Source of the DNA: Escherichia coli
Lineage (GTDB): Bacteria > Pseudomonadota > Gammaproteobacteria > Enterobacterales > Enterobacteriaceae
Direction: 5' to 3' (one strand)
Assembly (NCBI RefSeq): GCF_003019035.1
Contig: NZ_CP027447.1
DNA: 64,000 nt
The translations under genes were made by a program, and so were the position numbers. Numbering within the stretch: the first letter of the stretch is position 1; the number at the start of each line of letters is the position of its first letter. Below are positions 32,251 to 38,078 of this stretch, in pieces. The notes under the pieces were generated by a model. The model had not been told where the DNA came from, ran no database searches, and saw only the letters and a list, made by a program, of their open reading frames with translations.

Positions 32251-32851
32251 TTCGTTGTTACCACCATCAGCCAGCAATTTCATGCGTTGTGCCGAAGCCG
32301 TCGGAACACGCATTACAGACATTCCGGTAGACCTCAACACGCTGTGGTCGCCGGACACCTGCCCGGTGCATCTGCTGCCTTATCTCGCCTGGGCGTTTTC
32401 CGTTGACCGCTGGGATCGCAACTGGCCGGAAGAGACAAAGCGACAGGTGATTCGTGATGCATGGCTGATACACCGACACAAAGGGACCATCAGCGCACTG
32501 CGAAGAGCCGTGGAGCCTCTCGGCTACCTGATTGAAGTAAAGGAGTGGTGGCAACTCAACGAGGAGCCGGGAACATTTCGCATTGTTGTCGGAGTACTTG
32601 ATCAGGGCATCACCGATGAAATGTATCAGGAACTTGAGCGCCTTATTGCGGATGCAAAACCAGTAAGTCGCCATCTGACAGGGCTGGCGATCAGCCTGAG
32701 TGTGAACGGAAAGATTTTCGTTGGTACGGGATGCTATCACGGCGATGCCCTGACGGTTTATCCCTACACCCCGGAGTCCATTATTGTCGAAGGGGATTAT
32801 TTCCCTGCCCCGGCCATTCATTTAATTGATAATCTGAGAGTAAACGCATGA
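32243..32851 (+). CDS. Baseplate/tail protein I
   Basis: start at MSNSLLPP overlapping gpJ stop; position matches P2 I. Confidence 0.8.
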   Translation: MSNSLLPPSASNFMRCAEAVGTRITDIPVDLNTLWSPDTCPVHLLPYLAWAFSVDRWDRNWPEETKRQVIRDAWLIHRHKGTISALRRAVEPLGYLIEVKEWWQLNEEPGTFRIVVGVLDQGITDEMYQELERLIADAKPVSRHLTGLAISLSVNGKIFVGTGCYHGDALTVYPYTPESIIVEGDYFPAPAIHLIDNLRVNA

Positions 32852-34353
32852 CAGTGAAATACTACGCCATTCTGACTAATCAGGGCGCGGCACGACTGGC
32901 TAACGCGACGATGCTCGGCAGTAAGCTGAATCTGACGCAAATGGCCGTTGGTGATGCAAATGGTGTGTTACCAACACCAGACCCTGCACAAACAAAACTG
33001 ATTAACCAGAAACGCATTGCACCGCTGAATCTTCTGAGTGTTGACCCTAACAATCAGAGCCAGATTATTGCGGAACAAATCATCCCTGAAAACGAGGGAG
33101 GATTCTGGATCCGTGAGATTGGTCTTTATGATGATGAAGGCGTACTTATTGCGGTGGCAAACTGCCCGGAAACGTACAAACCGCAGTTGCAGGAAGGCAG
33201 TGGACGCACCCAGACTATCCGCATGATTCTGGTTGTCACGAACACCGAAGCCATCACGCTGAAAATCGACCCGTCAGTGGTTCTGGCAACCCGCAAATAT
33301 GTGGATGATAAAATCTCAGAGCACGAACAGTCACGACGTCACCCGGACGCCTCGCTGACCGTAAAAGGTTTTACTCAGTTAAGCAGTGCAATTAACAGTG
33401 AATCAGAAACACTGGCCGCAACACCGAAAGCGGTTAAGGCTGCATATGACCTGGCTAACAGGAAATATACCGCCCAGAACGCCACCACTACACAAAAAGG
33501 GATTGTTCAGCTCAGTAGCGCCACGAACAGCACGTCTGAAACGCTGGCAGCGACACCAAAAGCTGTTAAGGCGGTAATGGATGAAACGAACAAGAAAGCA
33601 CCATTAAACAGCCCGGCACTGACCGGAACGCCAACAACACCAACAGCGCCACAGGGGACTAATAATACCCAGATCGCAAGCACGGCTTTCGTTATGGCTG
33701 CGATTGCCGCACTTGTAGATTCGTCCCCTGATGCACTGAACACGCTGAACGAACTGGCTGCGGCGCTGGGCAATGACCCGAACTTTGCGACTACCATGAC
33801 TAACGCGCTTGCGGGTAAGCAATCGAAGGATGCCACCCTGACGGCGCTGGCGGAGCTTGCTACATCAGCAGATAAACTCCCATATTTTACAGGGGCAGAT
33901 CGTGCCGCGTTAACCGCGTTGACAAGTGTTGGACGTGCCATTCTTGGTAAAACCAGCACTCAGGGAGTTCTTGATTACCTTGGTTTGGGGGAAGGCTCTG
34001 CGCTGCCCGTTGGTGTACCTGTTCCATGGCCCTCAGCCACACCGCCAACGGGGTGGCTAAAATGTAACGGAGCAGCATTTTCTTCTGAAAAATACCCCAA
34101 ACTGGCAAAGGCTTACCCAACGTTAAAATTACCGGATTTACGGGGTGAGTTTATCCGTGGCTGGGATGATGGGCGCGGGATTGATGCGGGACGTACCCTG
34201 CTTTCTGGGCAGGATGGTACAAGTTTTTCTCATTACGGAGGTAATTTCGACATTGGGTCTGGTCATTCAATCAATAACTATGACCAAATTGTTTCTAACC
34301 AACCAGGCTTTTCCCGTTTTTCATTTGCGGGCCTTCACGAGGTGATGGGTTAA
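32848..34353 (+). CDS. Tail fibre protein H, constant region fused to a C-terminal cassette that carries a frameshift
   Basis: 501 aa; contains crossover site at 33968-33993 and the conserved GEGSALPVGVPVPWP...RGEFIRGWDDGRG block; ORF ends before the conserved cassette terminus, which is out of frame at 34364-34411. Confidence 0.85.
   Translation: MTVKYYAILTNQGAARLANATMLGSKLNLTQMAVGDANGVLPTPDPAQTKLINQKRIAPLNLLSVDPNNQSQIIAEQIIPENEGGFWIREIGLYDDEGVLIAVANCPETYKPQLQEGSGRTQTIRMILVVTNTEAITLKIDPSVVLATRKYVDDKISEHEQSRRHPDASLTVKGFTQLSSAINSESETLAATPKAVKAAYDLANRKYTAQNATTTQKGIVQLSSATNSTSETLAATPKAVKAVMDETNKKAPLNSPALTGTPTTPTAPQGTNNTQIASTAFVMAAIAALVDSSPDALNTLNELAAALGNDPNFATTMTNALAGKQSKDATLTALAELATSADKLPYFTGADRAALTALTSVGRAILGKTSTQGVLDYLGLGEGSALPVGVPVPWPSATPPTGWLKCNGAAFSSEKYPKLAKAYPTLKLPDLRGEFIRGWDDGRGIDAGRTLLSGQDGTSFSHYGGNFDIGSGHSINNYDQIVSNQPGFSRFSFAGLHEVMG
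33968..33993 (+). repeat. Invertase crossover site 1 (hix/gix-like 26 bp), inside H
   Basis: TTCTTGATTACC-TT-GGTTTGGGGGAA; left half resembles hix TTCTTGAAAACC; right half shared with five other sites. Confidence 0.7.
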
Positions 34354-34404
34354 TTATGTAACCATTCGTCCTCGTAATATTGCGTTTAATTACATCGTAA
34401 GGGC

Positions 34405-34430
34405 AGCATAAAAACGTTGGTTTGGGGAAG
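34405..34430 (+). repeat. Invertase crossover site 2
   Basis: AGCATAAAAACG-TT-GGTTTGGGGAAG, same orientation as site 1. Confidence 0.65.
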
Positions 34431-34897
34431 GCTCTGCGCTGCCCGTTGGTGTACCTGTTCCATGGCCCTTAGAAACACCGCCAACGGGGTGGCTAAAATG
34501 TAACGGAGCAGCATTTTCTTCTGAAAAGTACCCCAAGCTGGCAAAAGCCTACCCCACCAATAAATTACCGGATTTACGGGGTGAATTTATTCGTGGCTGG
34601 GATGATGGGCGAGGAATTGATGCAGCACGCGCTTTATTGAGCATTCAAACCGGGATGTTGGAAAAACACCGCCATATTGTTGTAGCTAACGATGGATATG
34701 ACACAAAGGATGAATGGGAGTTGGCCACGATTTTCAAAAAAACATATACACAAGGCAGGGGGCTTGATGCCACAAATACAGGAGGGAGTTTGATTCCATC
34801 ACCAACGCTTCATTCACGAGGAAGTATTGGTAACACAGGTGGTAGTGAAACCCGCCCCCGCAATATTGCATTTAACTATATCGTGAGGGCGGCTTAG
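34431..34897 (+). other. Promoterless alternative tail-fibre C-terminal cassette (cB)
   Basis: begins with conserved GEGSALPVGVPVPWP... block right after site 2, ends with conserved ...ETRPRNIAFNYIVRAA; no start codon of its own. Confidence 0.6.
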
Positions 34898-34903
34898 TTA
34901 TAT

Positions 34904-35515
34904 TCAACTGGCTGCTGCCAGTGGTATTTCCGGCCAGTTGATATCTGATGCCATGTTTATATCCATTGCGTTCAGTGCGTCTATATAATCCAGCACGGCG
35001 TTAAGCCGGGTGGTTTCTGCCTGCGTCAACTTCCGCCCGGCCCGCAACTTCAACTGAATCAGACTAATGGAAGCCATTGCAGTATCAATCAGCGACTGGC
35101 GCTGTGTTTCTGCCGCTTCTACTGCGGCGCTATGCTGTGCCTCGGTATCCGTCACCCATTTTTCACCATCCCATTTATCGTATGGTGTTAACGGGGCGAT
35201 AGTGGTTGTATTTTTCGGGTAGTCACCCAGCGTCGTGATTTCTTCGGTGTTTCCCGTATCAGTGCTATAGACGGTTTCACCACGATGATCTGGCGTATAC
35301 TCCCATGAATTTAAATTCTCCGAACGGCGGATAGCATAGCCCGCTTTATGTGCGCCCGGGGCATCTAAACAGGAATTTGCCGGAATACCGACACCCGCAG
35401 CAAGATATTCAGTTGATTCGGAAATATATTCCCGTGTCTCACCATCATAGTTATAAACGACGATGTTTCCTGCCTGTACGGCAATAAGGTCATCATTTAA
35501 TATCGCGTTATTCAT
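34904..35515 (-). CDS. Tail fibre assembly protein (Tfa; P2 gpG / Mu U family)
   Basis: 203 aa; typical Tfa size and composition; directly follows cassette c1 on the minus strand. Confidence 0.85.
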   Translation of the reverse strand: MNNAILNDDLIAVQAGNIVVYNYDGETREYISESTEYLAAGVGIPANSCLDAPGAHKAGYAIRRSENLNSWEYTPDHRGETVYSTDTGNTEEITTLGDYPKNTTTIAPLTPYDKWDGEKWVTDTEAQHSAAVEAAETQRQSLIDTAMASISLIQLKLRAGRKLTQAETTRLNAVLDYIDALNAMDINMASDINWPEIPLAAAS

Positions 35516-35964
35516 TATGCGGTTCTCACAATATAATTGAAGGCAATATTGCGTGGGCGGGTTTCATTCCCCTCTGAGGATTCCGTTCTGTATTGACTGG
35601 TAAATCTACCGTTAATTGCACCTTGCCGGACGGCGTTATCTGTCGACAACAGACTATCCCCTCCTTTGTCATTTGGCACCAGTACCGTGTTATCCCACGC
35701 ATCCCATGACCGAATATTATGATAATGACTTCCTGTTAACCACCCCTGCATGCTTAAGATGCCCCTTCCGGCATCCACCCCGCGCCCATCATCCCAGCCA
35801 CGAATAAATTCACCCCGTAAATCCGGTAATTTTAACGTTGGGTAAGCCTTTGCCAGTTTTGGATACTTTTCAGAAGAAAATGCTGCTCCGTTACATTTTA
35901 GCCACCCAGTTGGCGGCGTGGCTGAGGGCCATGGAACGGGCACACCAACGGGCAGCGCAGAGCC
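35515..35964 (-). other. Alternative tail-fibre C-terminal cassette c1 (minus strand)
   Basis: GEGSALPVGVPVPWP...RGEFIRGWDDGRGVDAGR..., variable middle, ends ...ETRPRNIAFNYIVRTA. Confidence 0.65.
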
Positions 35965-35990
35965 TTCCCCCAAACCAACGTTTTCATGCT
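35965..35990 (-). repeat. Invertase crossover site 3
   Basis: minus strand AGCATGAAAACG-TT-GGTTTGGGGGAA. Confidence 0.65.
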
Positions 35991-36442
35991 GCCCTTACGA
36001 TGTAATTAAACGCAATGTTATGGGGGCGTGTTTCAGATGCTGTGCGAACTGAGCGAGAGGCGTCGAATGTCCATACAGAAGCACCATATCCTTCAATGAT
36101 CTCAGTTGGTTGTAAGCCTACTGATAATATAGAGTCAGTTTGACTAAATGGTCCTGAATTAAACGCATCTTTAAAAAGCTGAGTACGCCCAAAAGTGCCA
36201 ACTATATTCTGAATAGCGTCAGACTGTGCAGACAGTAGGTTGCGCCCATTATCAACGCCCCGTCCGTCATCCCAGCCGCGAATAAATTCGCCCCGTAAAT
36301 CCGGTAATTTATTGGTGGAGTAGGCCTTTGCCAGATTGGGGTACATTTCAGAAGAAAATGCTGCGCCGTTACATTTCAGCCACCCCGTTGGCGGCGTGGC
36401 TGAGGGCCATGGAACGGGCACACCAACGGGCAGCGCAGAGCC
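35984..36442 (-). other. Alternative tail-fibre C-terminal cassette c2
   Basis: same conserved 5' block, distinct variable region, ends ...RPHNIAFNYIVRAA. Confidence 0.65.
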
Positions 36443-36468
36443 TTCCCCCAAACCAACGTTTTTATGCC
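36443..36468 (-). repeat. Invertase crossover site 4
   Basis: minus strand GGCATAAAAACG-TT-GGTTTGGGGGAA. Confidence 0.65.
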
Positions 36469-36881
36469 GCCCTTACGATGTAATTAAATGCGATATTTCG
36501 CGGCCTGACAGCAACAAAATTTATACCATCACCTACAGAGTTACTGGTGAAATTAAATCGTGAAAATCCTGGCTGATTTCCGACGATGCCATCATGAAAA
36601 TTAATTGCGTGCCCCGCACCATCACCTATATTTCCGGCACGCTGAGAAAAATTTGTAGCCTCTTGGCTGCTTAATAATGCTCGCCCATTGTCCACACCTC
36701 GTCCATCATCCCAACCTCGAATAAATTCGCCCCGTAGATCCGGCAATTTATTGGTGGGGTAAACCTTTGCCAGATTTGGGTACTTTTCAGAAGAAAATGC
36801 TGCTCCGTTACATTTCAGCCACCCCGTTGGCGGTGTGGCTGAGGGCCATGGAACAGGTACACCAACGGGCAGCGCAGAGCC
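36462..36881 (-). other. Alternative tail-fibre C-terminal cassette c3
   Basis: same conserved 5' block, distinct variable region, ends ...VRPRNIAFNYIVRAA; the cassette currently fused to H looks like a frameshifted relative of this one. Confidence 0.65.
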
Positions 36882-36907
36882 TTCCCCCAAACCAACGTTT
36901 TCATGCG
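36882..36907 (-). repeat. Invertase crossover site 5
   Basis: minus strand CGCATGAAAACG-TT-GGTTTGGGGGAA. Confidence 0.65.
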
Positions 36908-37398
36908 GCTCTTACGATGTAATTAAACGCAATGTTACGAGGACGGTTTTCGTTTGCAGTTGGAACAATTCTTGAAGCATCAAGGCCAATCACTTTTGGG
37001 TAAACAGCGCCATCTGTTCTTTCTGTCACCATACTTCTGACTAAGGAGAAATAACTATTGTTCGTTGAGGGGCTCAAAGGCACTACTGCCCCCTTAAACG
37101 AACCTACTGATTCCCATATTGAATAATTTTCGGTGTTTACAGTCTTGAACTCACCATAGATATTACGTATGGCATCGCCCTGAGCGGATAATATTGCCCT
37201 CCCCGTATCCATACCACGTCCGTCATCCCAGCCACGAATAAATTCACCCCGTAAATCCGGTAATTTTAACGTTGGGTAAGCCTTTGCCAGTTTTGGATAC
37301 TTTTCAGAAGAAAATGCTGCTCCGTTACATTTTAGCCACCCAGTTGGCGGCGTGGCTGAGGGCCACGGAACGGGCACACCAACGGGCAGTGCAGAGCC
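36901..37398 (-). other. Alternative tail-fibre C-terminal cassette c4
   Basis: same conserved 5' block, longest variable region, ends ...NRPRNIAFNYIVRAA. Confidence 0.65.
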
Positions 37399-37424
37399 TT
37401 CCCCCAAACCAACGTTTTCGTTTT
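37399..37424 (-). repeat. Invertase crossover site 6
   Basis: minus strand AAAACGAAAACG-TT-GGTTTGGGGGAA. Confidence 0.6.
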
Positions 37425-37478
37425 TATCCCTACCTATACCAACTATGTATTTTTCACGAAACAAAGAGGATGTTTTTT

Positions 37479-38078
37479 ATGCAAATTGGCTATATTCGTG
37501 TGTCAACAAATGACCAGAACACGGATTTACAACGCAATGCACTGAACTGCGCAGGATGTGAACTGATTTTTGAAGATAAAATCAGCGGAACGAAATCAGC
37601 CAGACCGGGATTGAAAAAACTGCTCAGAACGCTATCAGAAGGAGATACGCTGGTTGTCTGGAAGCTGGACAGACTGGGCAGAAGTATGAAACACCTGATT
37701 ACGCTTATTGAGGAATTGCGGGAAAAAGGTGTTAATTTCCGTAGTCTGACGGACAGCATTGACACATCAACACCCATGGGGCGTTTCTTTTTTCACGTCA
37801 TGGGGGCTTTAGCCGAAATGGAACGTGAATTAATTGTAGAGCGTACACTGGCCGGACTGGCAGCAGCACGCGCACAAGGACGCATTGGCGGACGTCGCCC
37901 GAAGTTGACAAAAGAACAACACGAGCAAATAGCGAGGCTGATTAAAAACGGTCATGACAGGAAACAACTGGCGATCATTTACGACATCGGCATATCGACG
38001 ATTTATCGTTATCACCCTGTAGGCGATATACAGGCTGAAGAAACAACCAGGCAGACTCAGGAAAATGAAAACCGCTAA
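37479..38078 (+). CDS. Serine DNA invertase (Hin/Gin/Cin/Pin family)
   Basis: 199 aa; N-terminal GYIRVSTNDQ catalytic Ser motif, resolvase core, C-terminal HTH; AGAGGA Shine-Dalgarno. Confidence 0.9.
   Translation: MQIGYIRVSTNDQNTDLQRNALNCAGCELIFEDKISGTKSARPGLKKLLRTLSEGDTLVVWKLDRLGRSMKHLITLIEELREKGVNFRSLTDSIDTSTPMGRFFFHVMGALAEMERELIVERTLAGLAAARAQGRIGGRRPKLTKEQHEQIARLIKNGHDRKQLAIIYDIGISTIYRYHPVGDIQAEETTRQTQENENR

What the first reader, a model, noticed from the sequence alone, without database searches (positions are those of the whole stretch)
34364..34430. Cassette boundaries are composite repeats: conserved 14-aa C-terminus, stop, crossover site, conserved N-terminal block
Every cassette ends with RP(R/H)NIAFNYIVR(A/T)A, followed within a few bases by the next crossover site and then the conserved 5' block of the next cassette. 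The homology shared between junctions is therefore over 200 bp, not just the 26-bp site. The conserved C-terminal peptide could be a docking or intramolecular-chaperone element that lets one Tfa serve all cassettes. The long homology could also allow RecA-dependent cassette exchange in addition to invertase action.
Basis: partly seen in the sequence, partly recalled or inferred. Interest (0 to 1): 0.4.

Follow-up and report, generated by a model that had tools for sequence, protein, structure and literature searches.

The report
Tail-fibre tip cassettes with shared ends
A prophage in E. coli carries six swappable tail-fibre tips that a DNA invertase shuffles, and their conserved ends are the two halves of one small protein domain already known from phage T4, so this is a well-understood type of host-range switch rather than something new.

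Summary
All six cassettes start with a roughly 200-nt conserved block and end with RP(R/H)NIAFNYIVR(A/T)A. In four of them the stop codon lies inside the left half of the next 26-bp Gin-type crossover site. This gives a 299-nt composite repeat in four copies at 78-85% identity. The other two cassettes (c2, c3) abut the tfa gene instead.

The Tfa-docking or intramolecular-chaperone reading is not supported. The N-block is the Pfam Collar domain. The C-terminal peptide aligns with the very C-terminus of T4 gp37 (…NIAFNYIVRLA, PDB 2XGF) and with gp12. In that fold the chain runs out to the receptor-binding tip and returns to the collar. Each cassette therefore has to carry both halves of the collar. 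Variation in the peptide's codons is almost entirely synonymous.

The idea of homologous exchange is partly supported on evolutionary time. N-blocks are mosaic, more alike within an array than between arrays, and 10% diverged where the adjoining cores are 99-100% identical. In a related prophage, however, deleting gin abolished switching.

The same junction occurs in E. coli P2-like prophages, P1-like phage-plasmids and viral contigs, in arrays of up to eight cassettes. This is a new member of a known kind (Min/Gin multiple inversion), of low interest.

The parts
32848..33979 (+). Constant 5' part (Sc) of the tail-fibre gene, up to the crossover dinucleotide of site A
   Evidence: ORF 32848-34353. 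Pfam Phage_tail_fib 1.9e-62 and Phage_fiber_2 1.7e-42.
33968..33993 (+). Crossover site A (left half from Sc, central TT 33980-33981, right half GGTTTGGGGGAA)
   Evidence: Matches the EC958 Phi2 sites in Table 3 of PMC4134206.
33982..34411 (+). Cassette c1, currently fused to Sc. Two 1-nt deletions (34328/9 and the G-run 34347-34349) truncate the ORF at 34353 and put the C-terminal peptide (34367-34408) out of frame.
   Evidence: Intact homologues in L002, L003, L005, L008 and L042.
34367..34429 (+). The junction of the finding: c1 C-terminal 14 codons, TAA stop (34409-34411) and site B (34405-34429, central TT 34417-34418, right half one G short)
34419..34897 (+). Cassette c2 (collar N-block, HRH-containing core, ...SETRPRNIAFNYIVRAA). 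Its 3' end faces the 3' end of tfa with no site after it.
34904..35515 (-). Single tail-fibre assembly gene tfa. Its start overlaps the c3 stop (TAATG).
   Evidence: Pfam Caudo_TAP 1.1e-33
35515..35976 (-). Cassette c3 (collar N-block, HYH core, ...NETRPRNIAFNYIVRTA), followed by tfa rather than a site
35965..35990 (-). Crossover site C. Its left half contains the c4 stop codon (35984-35986).
35984..36454 (-). Cassette c4 (...SETRPHNIAFNYIVRAA)
36443..36468 (-). Crossover site D. Its left half contains the c5 stop codon (36462-36464).
36462..36893 (-). Cassette c5 (...VAVRPRNIAFNYIVRAA), a paralogue of c1
36882..36907 (-). Crossover site E. Its left half contains the c6 stop codon (36901-36903).
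36901..37410 (-). Cassette c6 (...NENRPRNIAFNYIVRAA)
37399..37424 (-). Crossover site F, the outermost site. Its left half is non-coding DNA next to the invertase gene.
37479..38078 (+). Gin-family serine DNA invertase
   Evidence: Pfam Resolvase 1.5e-51 and HTH_7 1.4e-12. PDB chains named 'DNA-invertase', 3UJ3/4M6F, E about 1e-90.

Best explanation
This is a Min/Gin-type multiple-inversion host-range switch in a P2-like E. coli prophage.

**The switch.** A Gin-family serine invertase recombines six 26-bp sites at a central TT. Two sites now lie in one orientation and four in the other. Each inversion fuses the constant fibre gene in frame to a different cassette.

**Why both cassette ends are conserved.** Each cassette encodes a complete T4 gp37/gp12-type receptor-binding tip. 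The chain enters a small collar domain (the conserved N-block), runs out into a variable needle/head core, and returns so that its last roughly 14 residues complete the collar. Both ends are therefore conserved for a structural reason. Because cassettes are packed head to tail with no spacer, the collar-closing strand of one cassette, its stop codon (inside the left half-site), the crossover site and the collar N-half of the next cassette form one composite repeat.

**Secondary effect.** The repeats are long enough for homologous recombination and gene conversion. Over evolutionary time this homogenises N-blocks within arrays, reassorts cores onto different N-blocks, and probably adds or removes cassettes.

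**Status of each step.**
- Shown: the repeat anatomy, the family assignments, the synonymous-only variation, and the mosaic and boundary patterns.
- Inferred: invertase activity at this locus, packing of the C-terminal strand against the N-block, and the recombination pathway.
For: **Anatomy.**

**Invertase and sites.**
- Invertase.
- The sites match published Gin/Cin/Min-type sites, and the crossover site was already reported as part of a 227-bp imperfect inverted repeat with the Collar domain in the invertible part (PMC4134206).

**Collar fold.**
- All six N-blocks hit Pfam Collar PF07484 at 1e-15 to 1e-16, above the cut-off.
- phmmer against the PDB aligns c3 residues 5-69 with 2XGF chain residues 27-91, and c3 residues 131-152 with chain residues 220-242, the last residues of gp37 (...VKNIAFNYIVRLA). 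gp12 (...ETRPWNISLNYIIK) and the 9CUY short tail fibre also match.
- AF2 gives high confidence only for the N-block (pLDDT 78-93) and the C-terminal strand (82-86), both in the full cassette and in a core-deleted construct.
- Foldseek's top hits are 2XGF and gp12.
- Published description of the fold: the chain doubles back at the head and returns to the collar (PMC12609058).

**Selection on the peptide.** Variation among 27 distinct C-terminal coding sequences falls almost only at third codon positions.

**Generality.**
- The identical junction occurs in E. coli prophages with 2-5 cassettes, including flipped isomers.
- It occurs in IncY P1-like plasmids and in 39 viral-contig stretches.
- 114 of 182 cassettes are followed by stop-AAACG-TT-GGTTT.

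**Homologous exchange.**
- 59 of 120 site pairs in the six N-blocks fail the four-gamete test.
- Orthologous c2 and c3 cassettes show 14-20 mismatches in 186 nt of N-block against 1-5 in the remaining 264-282 nt (p from 1.5e-7 to 3e-3).
- N-blocks of different core families are more alike within a locus (0.886 against 0.861, permutation p 0.0005).
- L042 has an exact tandem duplicate of one 514-nt unit.
Against: - No reads or isomers were examined for this locus itself, so activity here is inferred from relatives.
- The currently fused cassette c1 and site B carry 1-nt deletions. Part of the switch may therefore be decaying, or the sequence may be locally wrong.
- No atomic contacts between the C-terminal strand and the N-block could be measured.
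- The N-block against core contrast is absent for c4 and c6 orthologues.
- The permutation test ignores relatedness among loci.
- In a related system, a gin deletion showed no recombination (PMC13418256). Homologous exchange is therefore rare.
Confidence: 0.8

Rival explanations
1. One reading: the conserved C-terminal peptide is a docking or chaperone element through which the single Tfa (or the fibre itself) folds every cassette.
For: - There is only one tfa for six cassettes, and one for up to nine in P1-like arrays.
- gp38/Tfa-type chaperones accompany gp37-type tips, and lambda Tfa can replace T4 gp38 (PMC9659904).
Against: - The same motif ends T4 gp12, which needs gp57A rather than gp38.
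- The peptide is 14 aa and has no Peptidase_S74 or other chaperone domain.
- Known Tfa proteins bind the distal variable moiety through a variable N-domain (PMC9608196).
- tfa is always translationally coupled to one cassette type, and Tfa diverges when that core differs (L009).
- The c2-type cassette is always convergent with tfa and cannot be co-transcribed with it.
Confidence: 0.1
2. The conservation upstream of the 26-bp site is a DNA-level requirement, that is, an extended recombination or accessory site for the invertase, rather than a protein constraint.
For: - In 19 distinct site-adjacent C-termini the stretch TTTAATTA(C/T)ATCGTAAG is nearly invariant. Val is always GTA, against 1 of 8 in tfa-adjacent copies.
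- The stop codon sits at a fixed position within the left half-site.
Against: - The peptide is equally conserved in c2- and c3-type cassettes, which have no site downstream and differ by synonymous changes. It is also conserved in T4 gp37 and gp12, which have no inversion system.
- Sites A and F work in two-site relatives with unrelated left flanks.
- Gin-family sites are 26 bp (PMC4134206).
- The extra nucleotide uniformity is explained as well by conversion tracts that start in the N-block homology.
Confidence: 0.07
3. The long repeats are only the residue of recent cassette duplication. They have no selective constraint and no ongoing recombination.
For: Arrays clearly grow by duplication of units. 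L042 has two identical 514-nt units.
Against: - The cores are unrelated in sequence while the ends are conserved. Differences in the ends are overwhelmingly synonymous.
- N-blocks are mosaic and more diverged than the adjoining cores in orthologues.
Confidence: 0.03

Closest known systems
Min multiple-inversion system of plasmid p15B and P1-like IncY phage-plasmids (Sandmeier, Iida, Arber 1990-1992; cited from my own knowledge, as the papers could not be opened)
   Same: Both have a Gin-family invertase, six or more 26-bp sites, and one constant fibre gene fused to alternative 3' cassettes. IncY plasmid pF16EC0267-1 (L004) and P1-like phage vB_EcoM-673R5 (L001) carry the same junction, and their cassette cores are 96-97.5% identical to c6 and c5.
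   Different: Here the array sits in a chromosomal P2-like prophage of about 36 kb, not in a P1-like plasmid prophage. I could not compare it with the original p15B sequence.
Two-site fibre switches of E. coli prophages (EC958 Phi1/Phi2/Phi4; PMC4134206) and the Mu G / P1 C segments
   Same: The site consensus and the central dinucleotide logic are the same. The crossover site is embedded in a 227-bp imperfect inverted repeat, and the Collar domain lies in the invertible part. L006 is such a two-cassette relative of this locus.
   Different: Those have two cassettes rather than six, so they have no cassette-cassette junctions with the C-terminus, stop and site overlapping. Mu and P1 carry one tfa-like gene per cassette.
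Gin-dependent tail-fibre 'shufflon' of Enterobacter prophage FR-phi (PMC13418256)
   Same: Three alternative C-terminal fibre isoforms are swapped by a downstream gin. Related loci with up to six paralogues are reported. Deleting gin locks the state.
   Different: I did not establish sequence relatedness to this locus. That work does not analyse junction anatomy.
T4 gp37 long-tail-fibre tip (PDB 2XGF) and gp12 short fibre (1OCY/5LYE)
   Same: Both have the collar N-half and the same C-terminal motif (NIAFNYIVR-LA; NISLNYIIK). c2 and c3 carry HxH motifs like the gp37 needle.
   Different: The cores are much shorter (about 60-90 aa) and differ between cassettes. T4 has no inversion system.
R64-type shufflon (Rci)
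   Same: It is also a multiple-inversion array that swaps C-terminal segments of an adhesin.
   Different: Rci is a tyrosine recombinase acting on sfx sites and the target is a pilus adhesin. Here the recombinase is a serine invertase.

Membership tests
Gin/Cin/Pin/Min (Din) invertase-driven tail-fibre inversion system | An adjacent serine invertase of the Gin family | tested here: met
   Pfam Resolvase plus HTH_7. E about 1e-90 to PDB 'DNA-invertase' chains 3UJ3/4M6F over residues 2-186.
Gin/Cin/Pin/Min (Din) invertase-driven tail-fibre inversion system | 26-bp imperfectly symmetric crossover sites that share one central dinucleotide and occur in both orientations | tested here: met
   Six sites...AAACG/TTACC-TT-GGTTTGGGGGAA, two on + and four on -. 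They agree with the published consensus and with EC958 Phi2 (PMC4134206). Site B lacks one G.
Gin/Cin/Pin/Min (Din) invertase-driven tail-fibre inversion system | Sites placed so that inversion fuses alternative 3' ends in frame to a constant 5' gene | tested here: met
   The reading frame through site A continues as GLGEGSALPVG. The same frame follows sites C-F. c2 would be out of frame because of the missing G.
Gin/Cin/Pin/Min (Din) invertase-driven tail-fibre inversion system | Inversion isomers actually occur | tested here: inconclusive
   Related prophages show the tfa segment in both orientations and the same core families on either side. Nothing could be tested for this locus without reads.
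Gin/Cin/Pin/Min (Din) invertase-driven tail-fibre inversion system | A Fis-dependent recombinational enhancer | not tested
   From knowledge of the family it would be expected in the 5' part of the invertase gene. I did not search for it.
T4 gp37/gp12-type collar-needle-head receptor-binding tip | Collar domain (Pfam PF07484) above the gathering score | tested here: met
   54.9-57.9 bits against a cut-off of 24 for all six cassettes.
T4 gp37/gp12-type collar-needle-head receptor-binding tip | The chain returns to the collar, with the conserved C-terminal motif at the very end of the protein | tested here: met
   The motif aligns to the last residues of gp37 and gp12. The C-terminal strand is confidently modelled together with the N-block. 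The return of the chain is described in PMC12609058. Direct contacts were not measured.
T4 gp37/gp12-type collar-needle-head receptor-binding tip | HxH metal-binding repeats in the needle | tested here: inconclusive
   One HxH in c2 (HRH) and one in c3 (HYH). None is evident in c4 or c6.
C-terminal intramolecular chaperone domain (Peptidase_S74 type; T5 pb1, K1F endosialidase) | A self-cleaving C-terminal domain of about 100-150 aa | tested here: not met
   No such Pfam hit in any cassette. The conserved element is 14 aa and ends the protein.
R64-type shufflon | An Rci tyrosine recombinase acting on sfx repeats | tested here: not met
   The recombinase is a serine resolvase/invertase.

The most novel reading that the evidence does not exclude
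The split collar acts as a pair of universal homology arms. Because every cassette carries the same collar N-half and C-terminal strand, receptor-binding cores move by homologous recombination between arrays and between unrelated phage types (P2-like prophages and P1-like phage-plasmids), with a recombination boundary at the 3' edge of the N-block. The same homology expands and contracts arrays by unequal exchange. The invertase supplies fast switching, and the homology supplies the evolving cassette repertoire.
Probability: 0.5. Interest if true: 0.35.

Novelty: new member of a known kind. Interest (0 to 1): 0.2.

Why it matters
The result explains why the ends of invertible tail-fibre cassettes are conserved: they are two halves of one structural domain. 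This corrects a tempting chaperone-docking interpretation. For phage engineering, it implies that receptor-binding cores of this family can be exchanged at the collar boundaries. For genome annotation, it shows that 'partial phage tail protein' ORFs in such arrays are complete tip modules. The comparative signal of homologous exchange at the collar block is a modest addition to the known picture of mosaic tail fibres. It does not open a new question.

Tried and rejected
- **AF2 of a whole cassette as a monomer**. The core came out below pLDDT 50, as expected for an intertwined trimer. The model is usable only for the collar parts. A core-deleted 'mini-collar' gave the same picture but still a mean pLDDT of only 67. 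I could not extract contacts from either model.
- **Primary literature.** I tried to open the p15B Min papers and Bartual 2010 on 2XGF. None is held, so those comparisons rest on my own knowledge and on secondary descriptions.
- **R64-type shufflon** considered and rejected, because the recombinase is of the serine class.
- **Peptidase_S74 intramolecular chaperone** considered and rejected, because there is no such domain.
- **First within-locus homogenisation test**, on 9 loci, was only borderline (p 0.05). It became clear only with 50 loci (p 0.0005).
- **N-block against core divergence contrast** is not seen for c4 and c6 orthologues, so it is not universal.
- **Not attempted:** a Tfa-cassette complex prediction, because only single chains can be modelled here.

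Full report
**What is in the window.** Bases 32848-38078 hold the distal tail-fibre module of a P2-like prophage. Baseplate genes V, W, J and I lie upstream, and the tape-measure, tube and U genes converge from downstream. The flanks of the window are 100% identical to the chromosome of E. coli SCU-301, which lacks about 36 kb between them. The host is therefore E. coli and the prophage is an insertion. The elements are:
- The fibre gene starts at 32848 (Pfam Phage_tail_fib, Phage_fiber_2, Collar).
- Cassettes c1 (33982-34411) and c2 (34419-34897) lie on the + strand.
- A single tfa gene lies at 34904-35515 on the - strand.
- Cassettes c3 (35515-35976), c4 (35984-36454), c5 (36462-36893) and c6 (36901-37410) lie on the - strand.
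- A serine invertase gene follows at 37479-38078. It hits Pfam Resolvase plus HTH_7 and matches the PDB 'DNA-invertase' chains 3UJ3/4M6F at E about 1e-90. I take these to be Mu Gin, from my own knowledge.

**Checking the observation.**
- All six cassettes begin with GLGEGSALPVGVPVPWP...LRGEFIRGWDDGRG and end with RP(R/H)NIAFNYIVR(A/T)A. Twelve of the 14 C-terminal positions are invariant.
- The repeat finder reports a 299-nt direct repeat in four copies at 78-85% identity, and inverted arms of 207-239 nt at 83-93%.
- A junction-centred alignment shows about 215-230 conserved nucleotides 3' of the crossover in all six junctions. It shows about 45 conserved nucleotides 5' of it in the four cassette-cassette junctions.
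- The site core occurs five times within three mismatches, against none in 100 shuffles.

Three refinements are needed.
1. The stop codon of the upstream cassette is not merely near the site. It lies inside the left half-site at a fixed position: stop-AAACG-TT-GGTTTGGGGGAA.
2. c2 and c3 are not followed by a site. They flank tfa: c2 is convergent with it, and the c3 stop overlaps the tfa start.
3. It has GGGG where the others have GGGGG. Cassette c1 carries two further 1-nt deletions relative to intact homologues. These stop the expressed ORF at 34353 and leave the C-terminal peptide out of frame.

**What the conserved ends are.** The N-block is the Pfam Collar domain in every cassette. Searching c3 against PDB sequences gave these matches:
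- The N-block aligns with the T4 gp37 tip (2XGF).
- The C-terminal peptide aligns with the last residues of that chain (...VKNIAFNYIVRLA).
- T4 gp12 (...ETRPWNISLNYIIK) also matches.
- A short tail fibre, 9CUY (...ENRPKNIAVMYIIKT), also matches.

In this fold the chain leaves the collar, forms the needle and head, doubles back and returns to the collar (PMC12609058).

AF2 modelled only two parts with confidence, the N-block (pLDDT 78-93) and the final strand (82-86). This held both in a whole cassette and in a construct with the core deleted. Foldseek ranked 2XGF and gp12 first.

The simplest reading is that the 14-residue peptide is the closing strand of the collar. A cassette must then encode both halves of the collar, because the variable core is an excursion inserted between them. 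The codon pattern agrees. Among 27 distinct C-terminal coding sequences from related arrays, variation falls almost entirely at third positions. This includes the c2- and c3-type copies, which have no recombination site downstream.

**The Tfa idea.** I found no support for a docking or intramolecular-chaperone role.
- The motif is present in gp12, which uses gp57A rather than gp38 (PMC3004832).
- No Peptidase_S74-type domain is present.
- Known Tfa proteins bind the distal, variable part of the fibre through their variable N-domain (PMC9608196).
- In all related loci, tfa is translationally coupled to one cassette type. Where that core differs, as in L009, Tfa differs too.

The idea is not excluded in a weaker form. 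A shared collar framework might let one Tfa assist several cassettes, and lambda Tfa can replace T4 gp38 (PMC9659904).

**The recombination idea.** Serine invertases exchange strands at the central dinucleotide, so the N-block should stay linked to its core. It does not.
- In the six N-blocks of the window, 59 of 120 pairs of informative sites show all four combinations.
- Orthologous c2 and c3 cassettes in other E. coli prophages have cores that are 98.6-100% identical but N-blocks only 89-92% identical. The boundary is sharp, at about nt 162-195: 14-20 mismatches in 186 nt against 1-5 in 264-282 nt, with p from 1.5e-7 to 3e-3.
- In 182 cassettes from 50 loci, N-blocks of different core families are more alike within a locus than between loci (0.886 against 0.861, permutation p 0.0005).
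- One viral contig (L042) has five different cores that all carry the same 'PLE' N-block variant, plus an exact tandem duplicate of one 514-nt unit.
- Site-adjacent C-termini share codon choices that tfa-adjacent ones lack. This is as expected if conversion tracts spread from the long N-block homology across the site.

Together these results argue that homologous recombination and gene conversion act on the composite repeats over evolutionary time. The pathway (RecA or a phage recombinase) is untested. As a switching mechanism it appears negligible: in a related Gin-dependent fibre shufflon, long reads of a gin deletion showed no recombination (PMC13418256).

**Comparison with what is known.** It is widespread.
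- The same junction occurs in E. coli P2-like prophages with two to five cassettes, including flipped isomers.
- 273 plasmid records match the invertible region, mostly P1-like plasmids of about 95 kb. One of them has at least nine cassettes and a single tfa.
- The junction occurs in 39 viral-contig stretches, in arrays of up to eight cassettes.
- Cores are shared at 96-97.5% identity between this prophage and P1-like elements.
- The EC958 genome paper already recorded that the 26-bp site sits within a 227-bp imperfect inverted repeat, and that the invertible part encodes the Collar domain (PMC4134206).
- Arrays of up to six fibre paralogues with a gin gene were reported in 2026 (PMC13418256).

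**Verdict.** The locus is a new member of a known kind. Interest is low.

Noticed in passing
window 34328-34427: Three single-base deletions cluster within 100 nt: between 34328 and 34329, in the G-run 34347-34349, and in the G-run 34424-27 of site B. They truncate the expressed fibre (ORF stops at 34353), put the c1 C-terminus out of frame, and would put c2 out of frame after fusion. Homologues elsewhere are intact. The window flanks are 100% identical to a finished genome. The deletions are therefore either real decay or a local consensus error in a mixed-isomer repeat.
   Followed up: partly
window 34904-35515 (tfa) and cassettes c2, c3: tfa currently points against the fibre gene. In every related locus it is coupled to a c3-type cassette and convergent with a c2-type cassette, so the c2 type can never be co-transcribed with tfa. 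Flipped isomers exist (L008, L009). Whether c2, c1, c4, c5 and c6 need Tfa at all is open.
   Followed up: partly
window about 6000-58000: E. coli SCU-301 matches both window ends at 100% but has 35,963 bp less between them. The P2-like prophage is therefore an insertion that is absent from that otherwise near-identical chromosome. No complete E. coli genome in the collection holds this exact prophage; the best match is 95-96% identical.
   Followed up: partly
L005 (NZ_CP142924.1, 2,021 bp): A record deposited as a linear 2-kb 'plasmid' consists only of three fibre cassettes and tfa. It is most likely an alternative-inversion contig of the kind described for EC958, not a replicon.
   Followed up: no
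L042 10852-11879 (IMGVR_UViG_2724679172_000005): Two 100% identical 514-nt [site + cassette] units lie in tandem within an array of at least eight cassettes, all in one orientation. This is either an unequal-exchange duplication or an assembly artefact.
   Followed up: partly
window 35515-37410 versus L001, L004: The c5 and c6 cores are 97.5% and 96% identical to cassettes of a P1-like phage and an IncY phage-plasmid. Unrelated temperate phage types thus share one cassette pool.
   Followed up: partly
window 34000-37600: The cassette region has a lower G+C content (0.46-0.51) than the baseplate genes upstream (0.55-0.62).
   Followed up: no
window 36901-37464 (- strand): In the present orientation c6 is preceded by an in-frame TTG, giving a free-standing 187-aa ORF (MFREKYIVGIGRDKNENVGLGEGS...). 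It is probably not meaningful, and I did not examine it.
   Followed up: no
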